Origin: Chitinophagales bacterium
Lineage (GTDB): Bacteria; Bacteroidota; Bacteroidia; Chitinophagales; LD1
NCBI GenBank assembly: GCA_035299425.1
Contig: DATGWP010000160.1
Coordinates: 4,929 to 68,928, forward strand
Reading direction: 5' to 3'
Length of the DNA stretch: 64,000 nt
A model generated the notes under the pieces. The model saw only the letters and a program-made list of their open reading frames with translations. It searched no databases and was not told where the DNA came from. A program made the translations under genes and the position numbers. Below are positions 24,389-28,196 of this stretch, one piece after another (the first letter of the stretch is position 1; the number at the start of each line of letters is the position of its first letter).

Positions 24389-24805
24389 CTACACTCTTCT
24401 CTTTTTAGGAGGACGACAACCGTTGTGAGGTATTGGTGTCATATCGTTTATAACAGTAACCTCGATACCACTTGTGAAGATGGTACGGATAGCAGACTCA
24501 CGGCCACCACCTGGTCCTTTTACAAATACTTCAACCTTGCGCAAACCTGCTTCGTGAGCAACTTTAGCTGCTTCTCCCGATGCTAACTGTGCAGCATATG
24601 GAGTGTTCTTTTTTGAACCACGGAAACCTACCTTACCGGCGCTGCTCCAGCTAATTGTTTGTCCCTGCATGTTAGTGAAGGTGATAATGATGTTGTTGAA
24701 AGTAGCGTTCAGGAAAGCTTTTCCTTCTGCATCTACCTTTACAATTCTTTTCTTAGCCTTTGCTTTTGCTACCGCCGAAGCTGATTGCTGTTGTTGTTTT
24801 GCCAT
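24389..24805 (-). CDS. rpsK: 30S ribosomal protein S11
   Basis: ..[27 protein letters not shown]. Confidence 0.97.
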
Positions 24806-25414: not shown

Positions 25415-25633
25415 CTACTTGTATCTGAATGTTATTCTTCCCTTGTTCAGGTCATAAGGGCTCATTTCTAACTGCACCTTATCACCAGGCAAAATCTTAA
25501 TATAGTTCATCCGCATTTTTCCCGAAATGTGAGCAATTAACTCGTGTCCGTTCTCTAACTTCACTCTGAACATAGCGTTGCTTAGCGCTTCTGTTATTGT
25601 TCCGTCTTGCTTGATTAGGTCTTGTTTTGCCAT
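25415..25633 (-). CDS. infA: translation initiation factor IF-1
   Basis: 72 aa, S1-like fold sequence [31 protein letters not shown]. Confidence 0.97.
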
Positions 25634-25667
25634 TCAGTTTTTTGAAAAATACCCACTACCCCCTTAA

Positions 25668-25708
25668 AAAGGGAACGCAAAAGTAGAATTTCCTTACACG
25701 TTTCCAAA
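25668..25708 (-). promoter_or_regulatory. Bacteroidota-type promoter of infA operon
   Basis: The minus strand reads TTTG-19 nt-TACTTTTG-CGTTCCC. The -7 box lies at 25678-25685. Confidence 0.55.
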
Positions 25709-26160
25709 TATTTCTGTGGGAAAAAAGTATAAGTGTATATTGGATAGTATAGAGTGCCTATTTTATGGCAAAGATGGTTGTTTTTGCTTAAAAATGCCCC
25801 TTTTTTGATTAAATGCTTTTTACCTGCTAAGGTTGGTTTTGAATAGCTTACATATATATAGTATCCAAAGCGAACCAATTGTACGAAACAGCTGCTAAAC
25901 AGCTACCAAGGAATATGAGGGTGTCCCTAAAATGCAGATTTTGAAAAAGTGTCCCCTATTGATGTTTGTAACAATTTGATTTTTAGGTAATTATGGCTTA
26001 ATGGTGTCCCTGGGGTGAATTTTAAGGGTGCCAGCTGTGAGGTTTTCCCAGTTTTAGATGTTTTTTATAATAAAGCCGGTGATCACCCTTTCAGTATTTA
26101 TAGACTTAGTATTTGTAATTGATTTTAATTGTACTTGTCAAAAAATTCTATTTTAGCCCC

Positions 26161-26214
26161 ATGCTAGTTCAAACTATCGCTTGTTGCTGTTGTTGCTCTC
26201 CCGCAGGGGAATGA
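26161..26214 (+). CDS. putative cysteine leader peptide MLVQTIACCCCCSPAGE
   Basis: ATG at 26161, five consecutive Cys codons TGT TGC TGT TGT TGC at 26182-26196, TGA at 26212-26214. A terminator hairpin and then cysE follow. Confidence 0.5.
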   Translation: MLVQTIACCCCCSPAGE

Positions 26215-26260
26215 ATAGCGCTTTTGATGCTTTGAGCCATTATTGCACAAAAATATTCGT

Positions 26261-26296
26261 AACCCTTCGCTTAAAACCGAGGGGTTTTTTATTTAT
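26261..26296 (+). terminator. attenuator-type intrinsic terminator upstream of cysE
   Basis: AACCCTTCG-CTTAAAAC-CGAGGGGTT (9 bp including one G-U pair) followed by TTTTTTATTTATT. It ends about 20 nt before the cysE ATG. Confidence 0.7.
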
Positions 26297-26314
26297 TAAA
26301 ACCTAAACCTGTAT

Positions 26315-27130
26315 ATGAGAATTGAGCCTTCGCCCAAGATTGATTTTAGCAAACTGCCCAGCAGGGCGGTTATCTATAAATTTACCGATGAGATAATAGA
26401 CTTGCTGTTTCCTATCGAGTCTACGTTTACCTACCATTACGAGGTGGCCGATGAAAAAGAAGAGCGCCTGCACCGCACGCTCAATGAAATTTTGCAGCCT
26501 ATAAGCAGCCGTTACCAATTGGATGCTGCCAGCATAGTGCAGCGGTTTTTTGATAGCCTGCCGGCGGTGTATAATAAACTAATACAGGATGCAGAGTTTT
26601 TTTTAAAAAGCGACCCGGCCGCTGAGAGTATAGAAGAAGTAATTATTGCCTACCCGGGTTTTTATGCCATTACGGTTTACAGGCTGGCACACGAGCTTAG
26701 CAAGCTAAGGGTGCCTATAGTGCCGCGTGTTATTACCGAATATGCGCATAATAAAACGGGTATAGATATACACCCCGGCGCCAGTATTGGCAGCCCGTTT
26801 TTTATTGACCATGGCACGGGTGTGGTAGTGGGCGAAACCACTATAATAGGCAACCATGTAAGAATCTACCAGGGTGTAACACTGGGGGCACTTGCGGTGC
26901 GCAAAGAAAGTGAAGGGGTGAAGCGCCACCCTACTATAGAGGATGATGTAATTATATATGCTGGTAGCTGTATACTGGGCGGCGATACCAAAGTGGGCCG
27001 CAGCAGCGTAATAGGCGGCAATGTGTGGCTGGTGAATAGTGTACCCCCGCTTTCGGTGGTGTACCACCGCAGCGATGTGGTAATACGCGACAAATCGGAG
27101 ATGACTACAGTAGTAGATTTTGTTATTTAA
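26315..27130 (+). CDS. cysE: serine O-acetyltransferase
   Basis: Left-handed beta-helix hexapeptide repeats (GIDIHPGASIGSPFFIDHGTGVVVGETTIIGNHVRIYQGVTLG) and an N-terminal SAT-type helical domain. Confidence 0.88.
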   Translation: MRIEPSPKIDFSKLPSRAVIYKFTDEIIDLLFPIESTFTYHYEVADEKEERLHRTLNEILQPISSRYQLDAASIVQRFFDSLPAVYNKLIQDAEFFLKSDPAAESIEEVIIAYPGFYAITVYRLAHELSKLRVPIVPRVITEYAHNKTGIDIHPGASIGSPFFIDHGTGVVVGETTIIGNHVRIYQGVTLGALAVRKESEGVKRHPTIEDDVIIYAGSCILGGDTKVGRSSVIGGNVWLVNSVPPLSVVYHRSDVVIRDKSEMTTVVDFVI

Positions 27131-27207: not shown

Positions 27208-28122
27208 ATGAAAGCGAACAGTATTTTAGAAACCATTGGTAACACCCCGCACCTGCGTATCAACAAATTATTTGGCAACCACGAAGTTTGGATAAAACTG
27301 GAGAGGCAGAATCCGGGTGGTAGTATTAAAGACCGCATTGCCTTATCAATGATAGAGGATGCTGAAAAGAAAGGCTTGCTAAAGCCCGGTAGTGTAATTA
27401 TAGAGCCTACATCGGGCAATACCGGTATAGGCCTGGCTATAGTGGCCGCTGTAAAGGGCTACCAACTTGTATTGGTAATGCCGGAGAGCATGAGTGTAGA
27501 AAGAAGAAGATTGATGAAGGCTTATGGTGCTACATTTGAGCTTACCCCCCGCGAAAAGGGAATGAAGGGTGCTATTGAAAAGGCAAAGGAACTGGCCGAT
27601 GCCACGCCTAACTCGTGGATACCATCGCAGTTTGATAACCCGGCTAATATAGATGTGCATGTGCGCACAACAGCCGAGGAGATTTTGAAAGACTTTCCCG
27701 AAGGGATAGATTACCTGATAACCGGCGTAGGTACCGGAGGCCACATTACAGGCCTGGCCAAAGTACTAAAGGCAAAGTTTCCTCAGCTTAAAGTGTTTGC
27801 GGTAGAGCCTGCTGCATCGCCGGTAATAAGCGGTGGACAACCTGCACCGCACCCTATACAGGGTATAGGTGCTGGGTTTATACCCGGCAACCTGGATACC
27901 AGCCTGCTAGATGGTGTAATACAAATTACTAAAGAAGAGGCATTTGACTATGCACAGCGCGCTGCTAAGGAAGAGGCGCTGTTTGGTGGTGTATCATCGG
28001 GTGCTACATTGGCGGCCATTGCCAAAAAGCTTACGGAGGTACCTGCAGGAAAAAGAGTATTGGGCTTTAATTACGACACTGGCGAGCGTTATCTTTCTAT
28101 AGAAGGCTTGTTTGAACTATAA
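27208..28122 (+). CDS. cysK: cysteine synthase A (O-acetylserine sulfhydrylase)
   Basis: [12 protein letters not shown]-Lys context [28 protein letters not shown] at 27208 is preferred. Confidence 0.95.
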
Positions 28123-28162: not shown

Positions 28163-28196
28163 AAACGCCATCCAATTAGGGTGGCGTTTATGTTTT
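28163..28196 (+). terminator. intrinsic terminator of cysE-cysK
   Basis: AAACGCCATCC-AATTA-GGGTGGCGTTT followed by ATGTTTT. Confidence 0.75.

What the first reader, a model, noticed from the sequence alone, without database searches (positions are those of the whole stretch)
26137..26314. Five-Cys-codon leader ORF plus intrinsic terminator directly upstream of cysE-cysK: candidate ribosome-mediated cysteine attenuator
Seen in the sequence:
- An ATG at 26161 opens a 17-codon ORF, MLVQTIACCCCCSPAGE.
- Five consecutive Cys codons (TGT TGC TGT TGT TGC) occupy 26182-26196, and the stop is at 26212-26214.
- 47 nt downstream lies a hairpin, AACCCUUCG / CGAGGGGUU (26261-26286), followed by U6AUUUAUU.
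- The cysE ATG (26315) follows within about 25 nt, and cysK is co-oriented behind it.
- AGGGGAAU (26205-26212), overlapping the leader stop codon, can pair with AUUC..CCCU (26255-26266). That alternative structure would sequester the 5' arm of the terminator.

Established knowledge: runs of regulatory codons in a short leader ORF followed by alternative terminator and antiterminator hairpins define the trp, his, leu, thr and pheA attenuators. A Trp-codon leader motif has been described for Bacteroidetes trp genes.

Inference: cysteine biosynthesis here is gated by charged tRNA-Cys availability. To my knowledge this is not a textbook mode of cys regulation, which is normally assigned to CysB, CymR or T-box/S-box elements, and it has not been described for Bacteroidota.
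Basis: partly seen in the sequence, partly recalled or inferred. Interest (0 to 1): 0.85.

Follow-up and report, generated by a model that had tools for sequence, protein, structure and literature searches.

The report
Cysteine-sensing leader attenuator before cysE-cysK
A 17-codon mini-gene with five consecutive cysteine codons, followed by competing RNA hairpins, sits in front of the cysteine-synthesis genes and is conserved across Bacteroidota, so it most likely switches those genes on when charged cysteine-tRNA runs low; this is a known type of control that seems not to have been described for this phylum.

Summary
The window has one run of five TGY codons (0.01 expected), lying in-frame in an ATG-started 17-codon ORF (26161-26214). 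A canonical intrinsic terminator (26261-26286 plus a T-run) follows, 28 nt before cysE-cysK.

All 12 close relatives (CysE 71-83% identical, with different upstream neighbours) keep a promoter box, a 3-5 Cys ORF, a G-run, an inner hairpin and the terminator. Nineteen of 160 broadly sampled cysE loci carry a Cys-rich upstream ORF (2.1 expected), and all the named ones are Bacteroidota.

Both alternative structures show compensatory changes, and they share the terminator's 5' arm:
- Antiterminator: 81% paired, 17 of 18 pairs compensated.
- Terminator: 92% paired, 5 of 9 pairs compensated.

In the window the two conformers are nearly iso-energetic (-20.0 and -22.4 kcal/mol).

- The conserved inner helix is AUGAAUA:UAUUCGU, not GAAU:AUUC.
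- There is no supported anti-antiterminator, so this is a three-segment design in which the ribosome itself masks segment 2.
- The promoter box lies 4 nt before the ATG, which predicts a leaderless mini-gene.
- Cys-codon leaders are already known in mycobacteria (tested) and upstream of Rhodobacterales cysS (predicted).

Verdict: a new family of a known kind, with no experimental test.

The parts
26149..26156 (+). Bacteroidetes sigma-A '-7' promoter box, TATTTTAG (consensus TAnnTTTG)
   Evidence: It matches 5 of the 6 specified positions. A box of this type lies exactly 4 nt before the leader ATG in all 11 close relatives examined. PMC9723704 places this box at -12 to -5, which puts +1 on A26161. 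The box itself is seen in the sequence; the start site is inferred.
26161..26214 (+). Leader ORF, 17 codons plus stop: MLVQTIACCCCCSPAGE*; predicted to be leaderless
   Evidence: An ATG lies in frame 7-9 codons before the Cys run in 12 of 12 close relatives. The Leu frame has none in 12 and the Val/Ala frame has one in 3 of 12.
26182..26196 (+). Regulatory run of five Cys codons (TGT TGC TGT TGT TGC)
   Evidence: It is the only such run in the window; 0.01 are expected by chance. Runs of 4 or more TGY occur 6 times in 25.6 kb upstream of cysE and once in 933 kb elsewhere.
26202..26208 (+). Segment 2: the 5' strand of antiterminator helix P1 (CG.AGGG), inside the leader ORF just before its stop codon
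   Evidence: It pairs with 26263-66 and 26268-69 when the terminator's 3' arm is absent. P1 shows compensatory changes across 19 members. It starts 5 nt after the last Cys codon.
26211..26260 (+). Inner hairpin P2/P3 (P2 is AUGAAUA 26211-17 with UAUUCGU 26254-60; P3 spans 26222-26252). It contains the leader stop codon and brings segments 2 and 3 together.
   Evidence: It folds at -9.3 kcal/mol on its own and is present in both conformers. All 11 P2/P3 pairs in the model show changes on both sides.
26261..26269 (+). Segment 3: the terminator's 5' arm, AACCCUUCG, shared by antiterminator P1 and the terminator
   Evidence: Six of its 9 nt pair with segment 2 in the antiterminator. The alignment columns are shared between the two structures.
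26278..26299 (+). Segment 4: the terminator's 3' arm, CGAGGGGUU (26278-86), plus the U-tract UUUUUUAUUUAUU (26287-99)
   Evidence: The terminator scan calls it. The hairpin folds at -11.9 kcal/mol. It is 92% paired with 5 of 9 pairs compensated across 19 members.
26315..27130 (+). cysE (EpsC-type serine O-acetyltransferase), the first regulated gene
   Evidence: NF041874 scores 151.3 bits against a cut-off of 150. The closest homologue is 99% identical and is annotated by NCBI as serine O-acetyltransferase EpsC from a Chitinophagales bacterium MAG.
27208..28122 (+). cysK (cysteine synthase A), the second regulated gene
   Evidence: TIGR01139 scores 403 bits against a cut-off of 351. It is adjacent to cysE in most relatives.
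28163..28189 (+). Terminator at the end of the operon
   Evidence: An 11-pair hairpin called by the terminator scan.

Best explanation
This is a leader-peptide (ribosome-mediated) transcription attenuator that senses charged tRNA-Cys and controls cysE-cysK.

Transcription starts from a Bacteroidetes-type promoter whose -7 box ends 4 nt before the ATG, so the transcript probably begins at or next to the AUG of a 17-codon leader ORF (inferred).

When Cys-tRNA is plentiful, the ribosome passes the five Cys codons and reaches the UGA at 26212-14. There it covers segment 2 (CG.AGGG, 26202-08) and the 5' strand of helix P2. Segment 3 (AACCCUUCG, 26261-69) is then free to pair with segment 4 (26278-86). 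The hairpin plus U-tract terminates transcription 28 nt before cysE.

When Cys-tRNA is scarce, the ribosome stalls with one of the first Cys codons in its A site, and its footprint ends before 26202-05. Segment 2 then pairs with segment 3 on top of the pre-formed P2/P3 hairpin. This antiterminator sequesters 6 of the 9 nt of the terminator's 5' arm, and RNA polymerase reads through into cysE-cysK.

No anti-antiterminator is supported; the ribosome itself does that job. An untranslated transcript would therefore be predicted to read through.

Shown by computation: the conservation, the reading frame, the covariation, the mutual exclusivity of the two structures, and the geometry. Inferred: the start site, the stalling and the regulatory outcome.
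For: 1. The Cys run is not a chance feature: 1 match against 0.01 expected in the window. Runs of 4 or more TGY occur 6 times in 25.6 kb upstream of cysE and once in 933 kb elsewhere, where 0.027 would be expected.
2. Twelve of 12 close relatives (CysE 71-83% identical) keep the -7 box, the ATG, 3-5 Cys codons, the G-run, the P2/P3 hairpin and the terminator. Their upstream neighbours differ, so the element travels with cysE.
3. Nineteen of 160 broadly sampled loci have a Cys-rich short ORF within 350 nt upstream of cysE. Chance predicts 2.1, and the opposite strand of the same regions has none. All named positives are Bacteroidota (Chitinophagaceae, Saprospiraceae, Lewinellaceae, Flavobacterium, Bacteroidales, Ancylomarina).
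4. Only the Cys frame has a conserved ATG: 12 of 12, against 0 of 12 for Leu and 3 of 12 for Val/Ala.
5. Antiterminator on 19 members: 81.4% of cells paired against 64% in shuffles (0 of 500 reach it) and 38-56% when partners are slid. Seventeen of 18 pairs have changes on both sides. The covariation score is 0.419 against 0.165.
6. Terminator: 92% paired, 5 of 9 pairs compensated, 0 of 500 shuffles reach it. It uses the same 5'-arm columns as antiterminator P1.
7. Seven distant loci have different terminator sequences, and each has a segment 6-17 nt after its Cys run that is complementary to its own terminator arm. Only 34 of 40,320 reassignments of segments to arms score as well.
8. Modelled ribosome states: stalling at the first Cys codon leaves the antiterminator able to form, and a ribosome at the stop codon abolishes it in every locus.
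9. In the window, P1 adds -10.3 kcal/mol and the two conformers are nearly iso-energetic (-20.0 and -22.4), as expected for a switch.
10. A covariance model built from the close clade retrieves the distant Cys-leader loci. It also found two loci with interrupted Cys runs, L077 (CICC) and L052 (CCKCC).
Against: - There is no experimental evidence of any kind: no mapped start site, no 3' ends, no response to cysteine.
- With the full upstream sequence included, the terminator conformer is always the more stable at equilibrium (-28.7 against -20.3 for the window). Read-through must therefore be kinetically controlled.
- The segment 1:2 anti-antiterminator of classical attenuators is no better than chance (-78.9 against -79.3 for shuffles; 158 of 300 shuffles do as well).
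- Single-locus shuffle tests of the segment 2 to arm pairing are mixed (p from 0.01 to 0.39; 0.09 for the window).
- The alignment used for antiterminator covariation was fitted to that structure by the covariance model, which inflates the pair counts.
- Leaderless mRNAs are rare in the two Bacteroidetes studied (5'UTRs under 10 nt are about 3.7% in B. thetaiotaomicron; leaderless mRNAs are 5.5% in F. psychrophilum). The leaderless start rests only on box-to-ATG spacing.
- Only about 10% of distantly related cysE loci carry such a leader.
Confidence: 0.85

Rival explanations
1. The short ORF encodes a functional cysteine-rich micropeptide (for example metal-binding, redox-active or a RiPP precursor), and the downstream hairpin simply terminates its own small transcript. 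Under this reading cysE would have a separate promoter.
For: The ORF is conserved and has its own promoter box. Within the close clade the peptide shows some similarity (ML/KF.Q.I-CCCCC-S..KGE).
Against: - Outside the Cys run nothing is conserved between lineages. Lengths range from 14 to 53 residues and the stop position moves by up to 30 nt.
- The conserved C-terminal codons coincide with the RNA strand that pairs with the terminator arm.
- The terminator ends only 10-80 nt before cysE in every terminator-type locus, and the 28 nt gap in the window holds no recognisable promoter box.
- This reading does not explain an antiterminator with compensatory changes.
- The element is found specifically before cysE.
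Confidence: 0.04
2. The terminator/antiterminator pair is a riboswitch or a protein- or tRNA-controlled switch (like T-box, S-box or TRAP systems), and the overlapping ORF is incidental and untranslated.
For: The RNA structures covary on their own. Cys and Met genes in Firmicutes are controlled by such RNA elements (established knowledge; cited in PMC1262725).
Against: - No Rfam family matches, even at E of 10 or below; that includes T-box and SAM riboswitches.
- The apical loop and the internal loops are not conserved, so there is no candidate ligand pocket.
- This reading does not explain the ATG, the open frame and the in-frame Cys run kept in 12 of 12 relatives and in distant lineages.
- It also does not explain the constant 5-17 nt spacing between the Cys run and segment 2.
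Confidence: 0.04
3. The element is a translation-coupled attenuator that reports general translation capacity or ribosome supply, not Cys-tRNA specifically, and the Cys codons have no special sensing role.
For: Because there is no anti-antiterminator, any failure of ribosomes to reach segment 2 would favour read-through.
Against: Cys is the one residue conserved across all lineages. It is present as 3-6 adjacent codons and is always linked to cysteine-biosynthesis genes. In mycobacteria, poly-Cys leader ORFs respond specifically to cysteine (bioRxiv 10.1101/834739).
Confidence: 0.05
4. This is a chance co-occurrence: a trinucleotide-repeat artefact that happens to lie next to a constitutive, partly efficient terminator.
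For: TGY repeats can arise by slippage. The window holds other 3-4 unit runs that lie antisense to Gln and Ala codon runs in ribosomal protein genes.
Against: Only 0.01 such runs are expected per window. The element is conserved across orders with TGT/TGC turnover that always keeps Cys. The control regions are essentially empty.
Confidence: 0.01

Closest known systems
Classical leader-peptide transcription attenuators of enterobacterial trp, his, leu, thr, ilv and pheA operons
   Same: A short leader ORF is rich in codons for the pathway's end-product amino acid. An intrinsic terminator lies just before the first structural gene. An antiterminator shares a strand with the terminator. The position of the ribosome decides which structure forms.
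   Different: - The amino acid sensed is cysteine, and the operon is cysE-cysK.
- No 1:2 anti-antiterminator or pause hairpin is supported, so an untranslated RNA is predicted to read through instead of super-attenuating.
- The leader ORF is predicted to be leaderless and has no Shine-Dalgarno sequence.
- There is no sequence relationship to any of these families.
Polycysteine leaderless short-ORF attenuators of mycobacteria (Canestrari et al. 2020, bioRxiv 10.1101/834739; predicted by Seliverstov et al. 2005, PMC1262725)
   Same: A leaderless short ORF with consecutive Cys codons is the first cistron of a cysteine-metabolism operon. Ribosome stalling at the Cys codons relieves repression.
   Different: - The output tested in mycobacteria is translational: stalled ribosomes block a duplex that otherwise hides the downstream ribosome-binding site. 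No conserved terminator hairpins are present there.
- Here the output is a canonical intrinsic terminator with a covarying antiterminator.
- The phylum is different and there is no sequence homology.
uORFC-8-2 motif upstream of cysS in Rhodobacterales (Brewer et al. 2021, PMC8632094)
   Same: It is a predicted ribosome-mediated attenuator with tandem Cys codons in an upstream ORF and a terminal intrinsic terminator.
   Different: - It controls cysteinyl-tRNA synthetase, not cysteine biosynthesis.
- It has only two Cys codons, at positions 14-15, and they lie inside the first stem.
- It is restricted to alphaproteobacteria.
- It is also untested.
Bacteroid-trp leader (Rfam RF01692) and the ilvE and trp leader-peptide elements seen in Flavobacterium psychrophilum (PMC9723704)
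   Same: These show that leader-peptide attenuation operates in Bacteroidota, which have no Shine-Dalgarno-led initiation.
   Different: They involve different amino acids and operons. The cmscan at E of 10 or below returned no match to Bacteroid-trp or to any other leader family.
T-box and S-box (SAM) riboswitch control, and CysB or CymR protein control, of cys genes
   Same: The regulated pathway and the logic are the same: induction when cysteine or sulfur is limiting.
   Different: The sensors are different (uncharged tRNA binding to RNA, SAM, or DNA-binding proteins). No T-box or SAM riboswitch was detected here. Protein regulators cannot be excluded and could act in addition.

Membership tests
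Leader-peptide (ribosome-mediated) transcription attenuators | A short ORF with its own start codon lies upstream of, and on the same transcript as, an amino-acid biosynthesis operon | tested here: met
   The ORF is at 26161-26214, 100 nt before cysE. An in-frame ATG is conserved in 12 of 12 close relatives. A promoter box lies directly upstream. That both lie on one transcript is inferred.
Leader-peptide (ribosome-mediated) transcription attenuators | A cluster of codons for the cognate amino acid in the leader ORF | tested here: met
   Five consecutive Cys codons in the window, and 3-6 in relatives. Enrichment is 6 runs against 0.027 expected.
Leader-peptide (ribosome-mediated) transcription attenuators | An intrinsic terminator between the leader ORF and the first structural gene | tested here: met
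   A 9-bp hairpin at 26261-26286 plus U6AUUUAUU. It is conserved and compensated across 19 members.
Leader-peptide (ribosome-mediated) transcription attenuators | An alternative antiterminator that shares a strand with the terminator | tested here: met
   P1 (26202-08 with 26263-69) stacks on P2/P3. Seventeen of 18 pairs have changes on both sides, and none of 500 shuffles reaches the score. It uses the same columns as the terminator's 5' arm. The energies are -20.0 and -22.4 kcal/mol.
Leader-peptide (ribosome-mediated) transcription attenuators | Geometry: a ribosome stalled at the regulatory codons leaves the antiterminator strand free, and a ribosome at or beyond the stop codon masks it | tested here: met
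   Footprint modelling in 12 close and 7 distant loci. Segment 2 begins 5-17 nt after the last Cys codon in all 18 loci tested. The footprint length of about 13 nt 3' of the A site is an assumption.
Leader-peptide (ribosome-mediated) transcription attenuators | A 1:2 anti-antiterminator (pause) hairpin that enforces termination when the leader is not translated | tested here: not met
   Pairing of the post-Cys codons with segment 2 is no better than for shuffled sequence (-78.9 against -79.3 kcal/mol summed; 158 of 300 shuffles do as well). This feature belongs to the enterobacterial archetype and is not needed for the general mechanism.
Leader-peptide (ribosome-mediated) transcription attenuators | Read-through responds to the supply of the cognate charged tRNA | not testable with these tools
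   This needs Term-seq or reporter assays under cysteine limitation.
Mycobacterial polycysteine leaderless short-ORF attenuators | The transcript begins at the AUG of the short ORF (leaderless) | tested here: inconclusive
   The -7 box ends exactly 4 nt before the ATG in the window and all 10 other close relatives examined. With the box at -12 to -5 (PMC9723704), +1 falls on A26161. No start-site data exist. In distant members the box lies 14-29 nt upstream, so those are not leaderless.
Mycobacterial polycysteine leaderless short-ORF attenuators | At least two consecutive Cys codons, upstream of a cysteine-metabolism operon | tested here: met
Mycobacterial polycysteine leaderless short-ORF attenuators | The output is translational: a duplex that sequesters the downstream ribosome-binding site is disrupted by the stalled ribosome | tested here: not met
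   Here the competing structure is an intrinsic terminator with a U-tract that ends 16-28 nt before the cysE ATG, not a structure over the start region. The element works like the mycobacterial system at the sensing step but is not a member of that family.
uORFC-8-2 (Rhodobacterales cysS) motif | Located upstream of cysS, with two tandem Cys codons inside the first stem, in alphaproteobacteria | tested here: not met
   The downstream gene is cysE. The Cys codons are not paired in the supported structures. The host is annotated as a Chitinophagales bacterium.
Rfam-curated RNA families (Bacteroid-trp, T-box, SAM riboswitches and others) | A covariance-model match at or near the family's gathering score | tested here: not met
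   The only matches in 25600-26400 are four weak ones (12-16 bits, E above 3), all to unrelated families. A scan of the whole window at gathering thresholds finds only a tRNA.

The most novel reading that the evidence does not exclude
Poly-Cys leader ORFs may be a phylum-wide, primary cysteine sensor in Bacteroidota, a 'Cys ribulon' like the one proposed for mycobacteria.

Under this reading they would have diversified into at least two designs:
1. The three-segment terminator/antiterminator switch seen here. It lacks an anti-antiterminator, so it is ON by default unless translated, and in this Chitinophagales clade it is driven by leaderless translation.
2. A compact form in which the Cys codons lie inside or directly against the terminating structure, so that the stalled ribosome is itself the antiterminator (L082, L084, L085, L106, L118).

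They might also govern other sulfur and cysteine genes beyond cysE-cysK.
Probability: 0.3. Interest if true: 0.65.

Novelty: new member of a known kind. Interest (0 to 1): 0.5.

Why it matters
How Bacteroidota regulate cysteine biosynthesis is poorly known; that is my own knowledge, and none of the papers I read here addresses it. The phylum makes little use of Shine-Dalgarno-led initiation.

A conserved, covariation-supported Cys-codon attenuator would give a concrete, testable mechanism for cysE-cysK control across environmental and host-associated Bacteroidota. It would extend cysteine sensing by stalled ribosomes from Actinobacteria and alphaproteobacteria to a third phylum, this time with a transcription-termination output.

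It would also provide a compact natural example of an attenuator that works without an anti-antiterminator and possibly from a leaderless mRNA. The family is absent from Rfam, so the alignment and model made here could seed a new entry and improve annotation of these 5' regions. Cultured carriers exist for experiments: Flavobacterium suaedae CGMCC 1.15461 (L052) and Ancylomarina sp. DW003 (L044).

Tried and rejected
- **Rfam.** A scan of 25600-26400 at E of 10 or below, and of the whole window at gathering thresholds, matched no relevant family.
- **MAFFT plus RNAalifold.** On the close relatives this recovered only the invariant terminator, with no covariation. MAFFT misaligned the inner helices, so I built a covariance model to realign them.
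- **Classical 1:2 anti-antiterminator.** It looked plausible in individual folds but failed the shuffle control. I dropped it from the model.
- **Per-locus shuffles of the segment 2 to arm duplex.** Results were mixed (p 0.01-0.39), because many loci share the same G-run/CCCUU motif. Only the assignment-permutation test was clearly significant.
- **TGT/TGC turnover as evidence of coding.** I rejected this argument, because the same changes are synonymous (TTG/CTG) in the Leu frame. I replaced it with the ATG/frame test.
- **Automatic terminator finder.** It missed L058 and mis-set some boundaries. I set the terminators of the seven distant loci by inspection, which is a subjective step.
This register is not the conserved one.
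- **Literature.** Five full-text searches and targeted reading of six papers and one set of supplements found no Bacteroidota Cys leader. Subscription-only papers, such as Vitreschak et al. 2004 in FEMS Microbiol Lett, could not be checked.
- **Collection scans.** I could therefore not scan upstream of other cysteine or sulfur genes.
Full report
**1. What is in the sequence**

- An ATG at 26161 opens MLVQTIACCCCCSPAGE, which ends at the TGA at 26212-14.
- The five Cys codons occupy 26182-26196.
- A 9-bp hairpin with 5 G-C pairs (AACCCTTCG, 8-nt loop, CGAGGGGTT; 26261-26286) is followed by TTTTTTATTTATT. The terminator scan calls it independently.

The 5x TGY pattern occurs once on either strand of the 64-kb window, against 0.01 expected from dinucleotide-preserving shuffles.

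The downstream ORFs are an EpsC-type serine O-acetyltransferase (26315-27130; 151.3 bits against a cut-off of 150) and cysteine synthase A (27208-28122; 403 bits against 351). A second terminator closes the operon at 28163-28189.

The nearest upstream gene, infA, is on the other strand, so the hairpin at 26261 does not terminate an upstream gene. The best CysE match (99% identity) is annotated by NCBI as coming from a Chitinophagales bacterium MAG. No Rfam family matches the region.

**2. Conservation**

I fetched three sets of loci:
- 80 cysE loci from reference genomes;
- 80 from metagenomes;
- 14 loci, 11 of them distinct, encoding the closest CysE homologues at 71-83% identity.

With L081 (82% identical) from the metagenome set and the window itself, these make the 12 sequences I call the close relatives.

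*Close relatives.* All 12 distinct sequences carry the same element directly upstream of cysE, although their upstream neighbours are all different genes. The element consists of:
- a TAnnTTTG-like box;
- an ATG exactly 4 nt later;
- a 15-23 codon ORF with 3-5 adjacent Cys codons;
- a G-run 8-11 nt after the Cys run in the relatives (5 nt in the window);
- an inner hairpin;
- the terminator AACCCTTCG...CGAAGGGTT plus a T-run, 16-27 nt before the cysE ATG.

L170 keeps the leader even though cysK is not the next gene there. The element therefore belongs to cysE.

*Broad sample.* Runs of four or more TGY occur 6 times in the 25.6 kb lying within 300 nt upstream of cysE. They occur once in the remaining 933 kb, where 0.027 would be expected.

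With a relaxed rule (an ATG-started ORF of 6-60 codons with at least 3 Cys in any 5 codons), 19 of 160 loci are positive. Chance predicts 2.1, and the opposite strand of the same regions has none. Two of the 19 (L040, L045) are probably chance hits.

Every named positive is from Bacteroidota: Chitinophagaceae, Saprospiraceae, Lewinellaceae, three Flavobacterium, Bacteroidales and Ancylomarina. Loci from Leptospiraceae, Myxococcota and Ignavibacteriota, and both Chloroflexota loci (L023, L034), are negative. The one positive outside Bacteroidota, L045 (Dormibacterota), is among the probable chance hits.

**3. Is the ORF translated, and in which frame?**

TGY repeats read as Leu (TTG/CTG) in the +2 frame, so TGT/TGC turnover is synonymous in both frames and cannot decide the question. 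The start codon does decide it.

In the 12 close relatives, which were chosen only by CysE similarity, the Cys frame has an ATG 7-9 codons upstream in 12 of 12. The Leu frame has one in 0 of 12 and the Val/Ala frame in 3 of 12.

Outside the Cys run, peptide sequence, length (14-53 residues) and stop position all vary between lineages. This argues against a functional peptide.

**4. Promoter and 5' end (inferred)**

In Flavobacterium psychrophilum the sigma-A box TAnnTTTG occupies -12 to -5 (PMC9723704). In the window and all 10 other close relatives the box ends exactly 4 nt before the ATG. That places +1 on the A of the AUG, so the leader ORF would be leaderless.

In most distant members a TAnnTTTG box, often a full 6/6 match, lies 14-29 nt before the ATG. 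This predicts a 5' UTR of about 10-25 nt, which is ordinary for the phylum (medians of 24-32 nt).

Either way, the leader ORF appears to be the first cistron of the transcript. Leaderless mRNAs are uncommon in the two Bacteroidetes studied: 5' UTRs shorter than 10 nt make up about 3.7% in B. thetaiotaomicron, and leaderless mRNAs 5.5% in F. psychrophilum. This point needs start-site mapping.

**5. The RNA switch**

When each relative is folded with the terminator's 3' arm blocked, one architecture recurs. The G-run (segment 2) pairs with CCCUU(C)G in the terminator's 5' arm (segment 3). This helix, P1, stacks on an inner hairpin, P2/P3.

In the window the helices are as follows:

| Helix | 5' strand | 3' strand |
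|---|---|---|
| P1 | 26202-03 and 26205-08 | 26263-66 and 26268-69 |
| P2 | 26211-17 | 26254-60 |
| P3 | within 26222-26252 | (hairpin) |

P1 contributes -10.3 kcal/mol, against -11.9 for the terminator hairpin. The complete antiterminator and terminator conformers of 26202-26286 differ by only 2.4 kcal/mol (-20.0 and -22.4).

A covariance model built on this structure retrieved distant Cys-leader loci from other orders (L092, L017, L043, L047 and L058 at E below 0.02). It also revealed two members with interrupted Cys runs: L077 (CICC) and L052 (Flavobacterium suaedae, CCKCC).

Pair counts on the 19-member alignment:

| Structure | Cells paired | Shuffled | Partners slid | Pairs changed on both sides | Covariation score (shuffled) |
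|---|---|---|---|---|---|
| Antiterminator | 81.4% | 64% | 38-56% | 17 of 18 | 0.419 (0.165) |
| Terminator | 92% | 84% | 30-75% | 5 of 9 | 0.302 (0.170) |

For both structures, none of 500 shuffles reaches the observed pairing or covariation score. The antiterminator count comes from an alignment fitted to that structure, which favours it. The terminator's 3' arm was modelled as unpaired, so that count is less biased. The two helices use the same 5'-arm columns and are therefore mutually exclusive.

An alignment-free test agrees. Seven distant loci have different terminators, and in each the segment 6-17 nt after the Cys run is complementary to its own terminator arm. Examples are CGGAAAAGGG with CCCUUUUCCG in L058 and GGGGUU with AAUCCC in L015; the covariance-model alignment adds GAAGAGU with ACUCUUC in L077. 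Only 34 of 40,320 reassignments of segments to arms score as well as the true assignment. Single-locus shuffles are weaker (p 0.01-0.39), because many loci share the same G-run/CCCUU motif.

**6. Ribosome geometry**

I assumed the mRNA is protected to about 13 nt 3' of the first A-site base.
- A ribosome stalled on the first Cys codons leaves segment 2 free, and the antiterminator forms.
- A ribosome at the stop codon covers segment 2 and the 5' strand of P2. No competing structure is left (about 0 to -5 kcal/mol), and the terminator forms.

This holds in all 12 close and all 7 distant loci.

In several relatives the stop codon lies 15-30 nt beyond segment 2, so the ribosome travels through the 5' side of the antiterminator. 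The constant feature is therefore the spacing between the Cys run and segment 2 (5-17 nt), not the position of the stop codon.

**7. What failed**

The classical anti-antiterminator, in which segment 1 pairs with segment 2, looked plausible in single folds. It is indistinguishable from shuffled sequence: summed energy is -78.9 against -79.3 ± 8.3, and 158 of 300 shuffles do as well.

The element is therefore best described as a three-segment attenuator in which the ribosome alone masks segment 2. The consequence is that an untranslated leader should read through, which is the opposite of trp super-attenuation. This makes efficient initiation on the leader ORF essential.

With all upstream sequence included, the terminator conformer is always the more stable. 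Read-through must therefore be set kinetically.

**8. Comparison with known systems**

The mechanism is the textbook leader-peptide attenuation mechanism, and sensing cysteine in this way has precedents.
- Seliverstov et al. 2005 predicted Cys-run leaders upstream of actinobacterial cys operons, without terminators (PMC1262725).
- Canestrari et al. 2020 showed that leaderless poly-Cys short ORFs in M. smegmatis respond to cysteine by unmasking a downstream ribosome-binding site.
- Brewer et al. 2021 predicted a two-Cys upstream ORF with a terminator upstream of cysS in Rhodobacterales (PMC8632094).
- Leader-peptide elements for trp and ilvE are known in Bacteroidetes.

I found no description of a Cys leader in Bacteroidota or upstream of cysE-cysK with a terminator/antiterminator pair, and Rfam 15 has no such family. 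The library lacks most subscription-journal papers, so earlier mention elsewhere cannot be excluded.

**9. Verdict**

This is a new family of a well-known kind of regulator, not a new kind. Its modest distinguishing features are the predicted leaderless start, the absence of an anti-antiterminator, and its spread across Bacteroidota orders. A second, compact design seen in some loci was not followed up.

Interest is moderate (0.5). It would be a useful addition to RNA-regulation catalogues and a testable handle on cysteine control in Bacteroidota, but it would not surprise a specialist.

Noticed in passing
L082:1723-1890, L084:1780-1938, L085:1783-1908, L106:1753-1935, L118:1770-1920, L004:2711-2950: A second, compact design of Cys-run upstream ORF before cysE. 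The ORF ends with CCCC plus up to about 7 further codons (L106 adds a second CCCC block), 55-190 nt before cysE, with no separate terminator hairpin. In L084 the Cys codons lie in the loop and 3' arm of a hairpin (AAGCAGC...GUUGCUU) followed by CUAA and U7, so a stalled ribosome could itself block terminator formation without any antiterminator.
   Followed up: partly
window:25920-26035: The 9-mer GGTGTCCCT occurs twice exactly (25920 and 26003). Degenerate copies (GTGTCCCCT near 25951, GGGTGCCAG near 26027) are visible in the sequence. They lie in the roughly 530-nt gene-free stretch between infA and the leader promoter. This could be a regulator binding site or the remnant of a small repeat. 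The upstream regions of relatives are not syntenic, so conservation could not be assessed.
   Followed up: partly
L052:2803-2941 (Flavobacterium suaedae CGMCC 1.15461) and L044:2706-2936 (Ancylomarina sp. DW003): Cultured strains carry the element. L052 has the leader MFLDQIYMACCKCCFRIREGLAMS with a GGAGGG/CUCUCC antiterminator and its own terminator. L044 has a 53-codon leader with six consecutive Cys codons. Both are practical hosts for experimental tests.
   Followed up: partly
L161:2371-2736 and L162:2371-2736: A gene for a 23S rRNA intervening-sequence protein (PF05635) is inserted between cysE and cysK in this relative. The operon is otherwise contiguous in the other loci.
   Followed up: no
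window:28202-29317; L170:2392-3390; L172:3373-3825: A TrkA-N/Ion_trans_2 potassium-channel-like gene recurs directly downstream of cysE-cysK. In L170 it lies directly downstream of cysE, with no cysK in between. In the window it lies beyond the operon terminator, so co-regulation is unlikely, but the neighbourhood is conserved.
   Followed up: no
window:24786-24797 (+), 29633-29644 (-) and 29675-29686 (-): The other 4-unit TGY runs in the window lie antisense to a Gln-codon run in the 138-aa ribosomal-protein ORF at 24389-24805 and to an Ala-codon run in the L7/L12-like ORF at 29416-29790. They are by-products of those coding repeats, not leader ORFs, and show what background Cys-codon runs look like.
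   Followed up: yes
L045:2707-2790 (Candidatus Dormibacterota MAG): A 27-codon ORF ending ...LICTCACS lies upstream of cysE in a non-Bacteroidota genome. It may be one of the roughly 2 chance hits expected in the relaxed scan, or an unrelated Cys-sensing leader.
   Followed up: no
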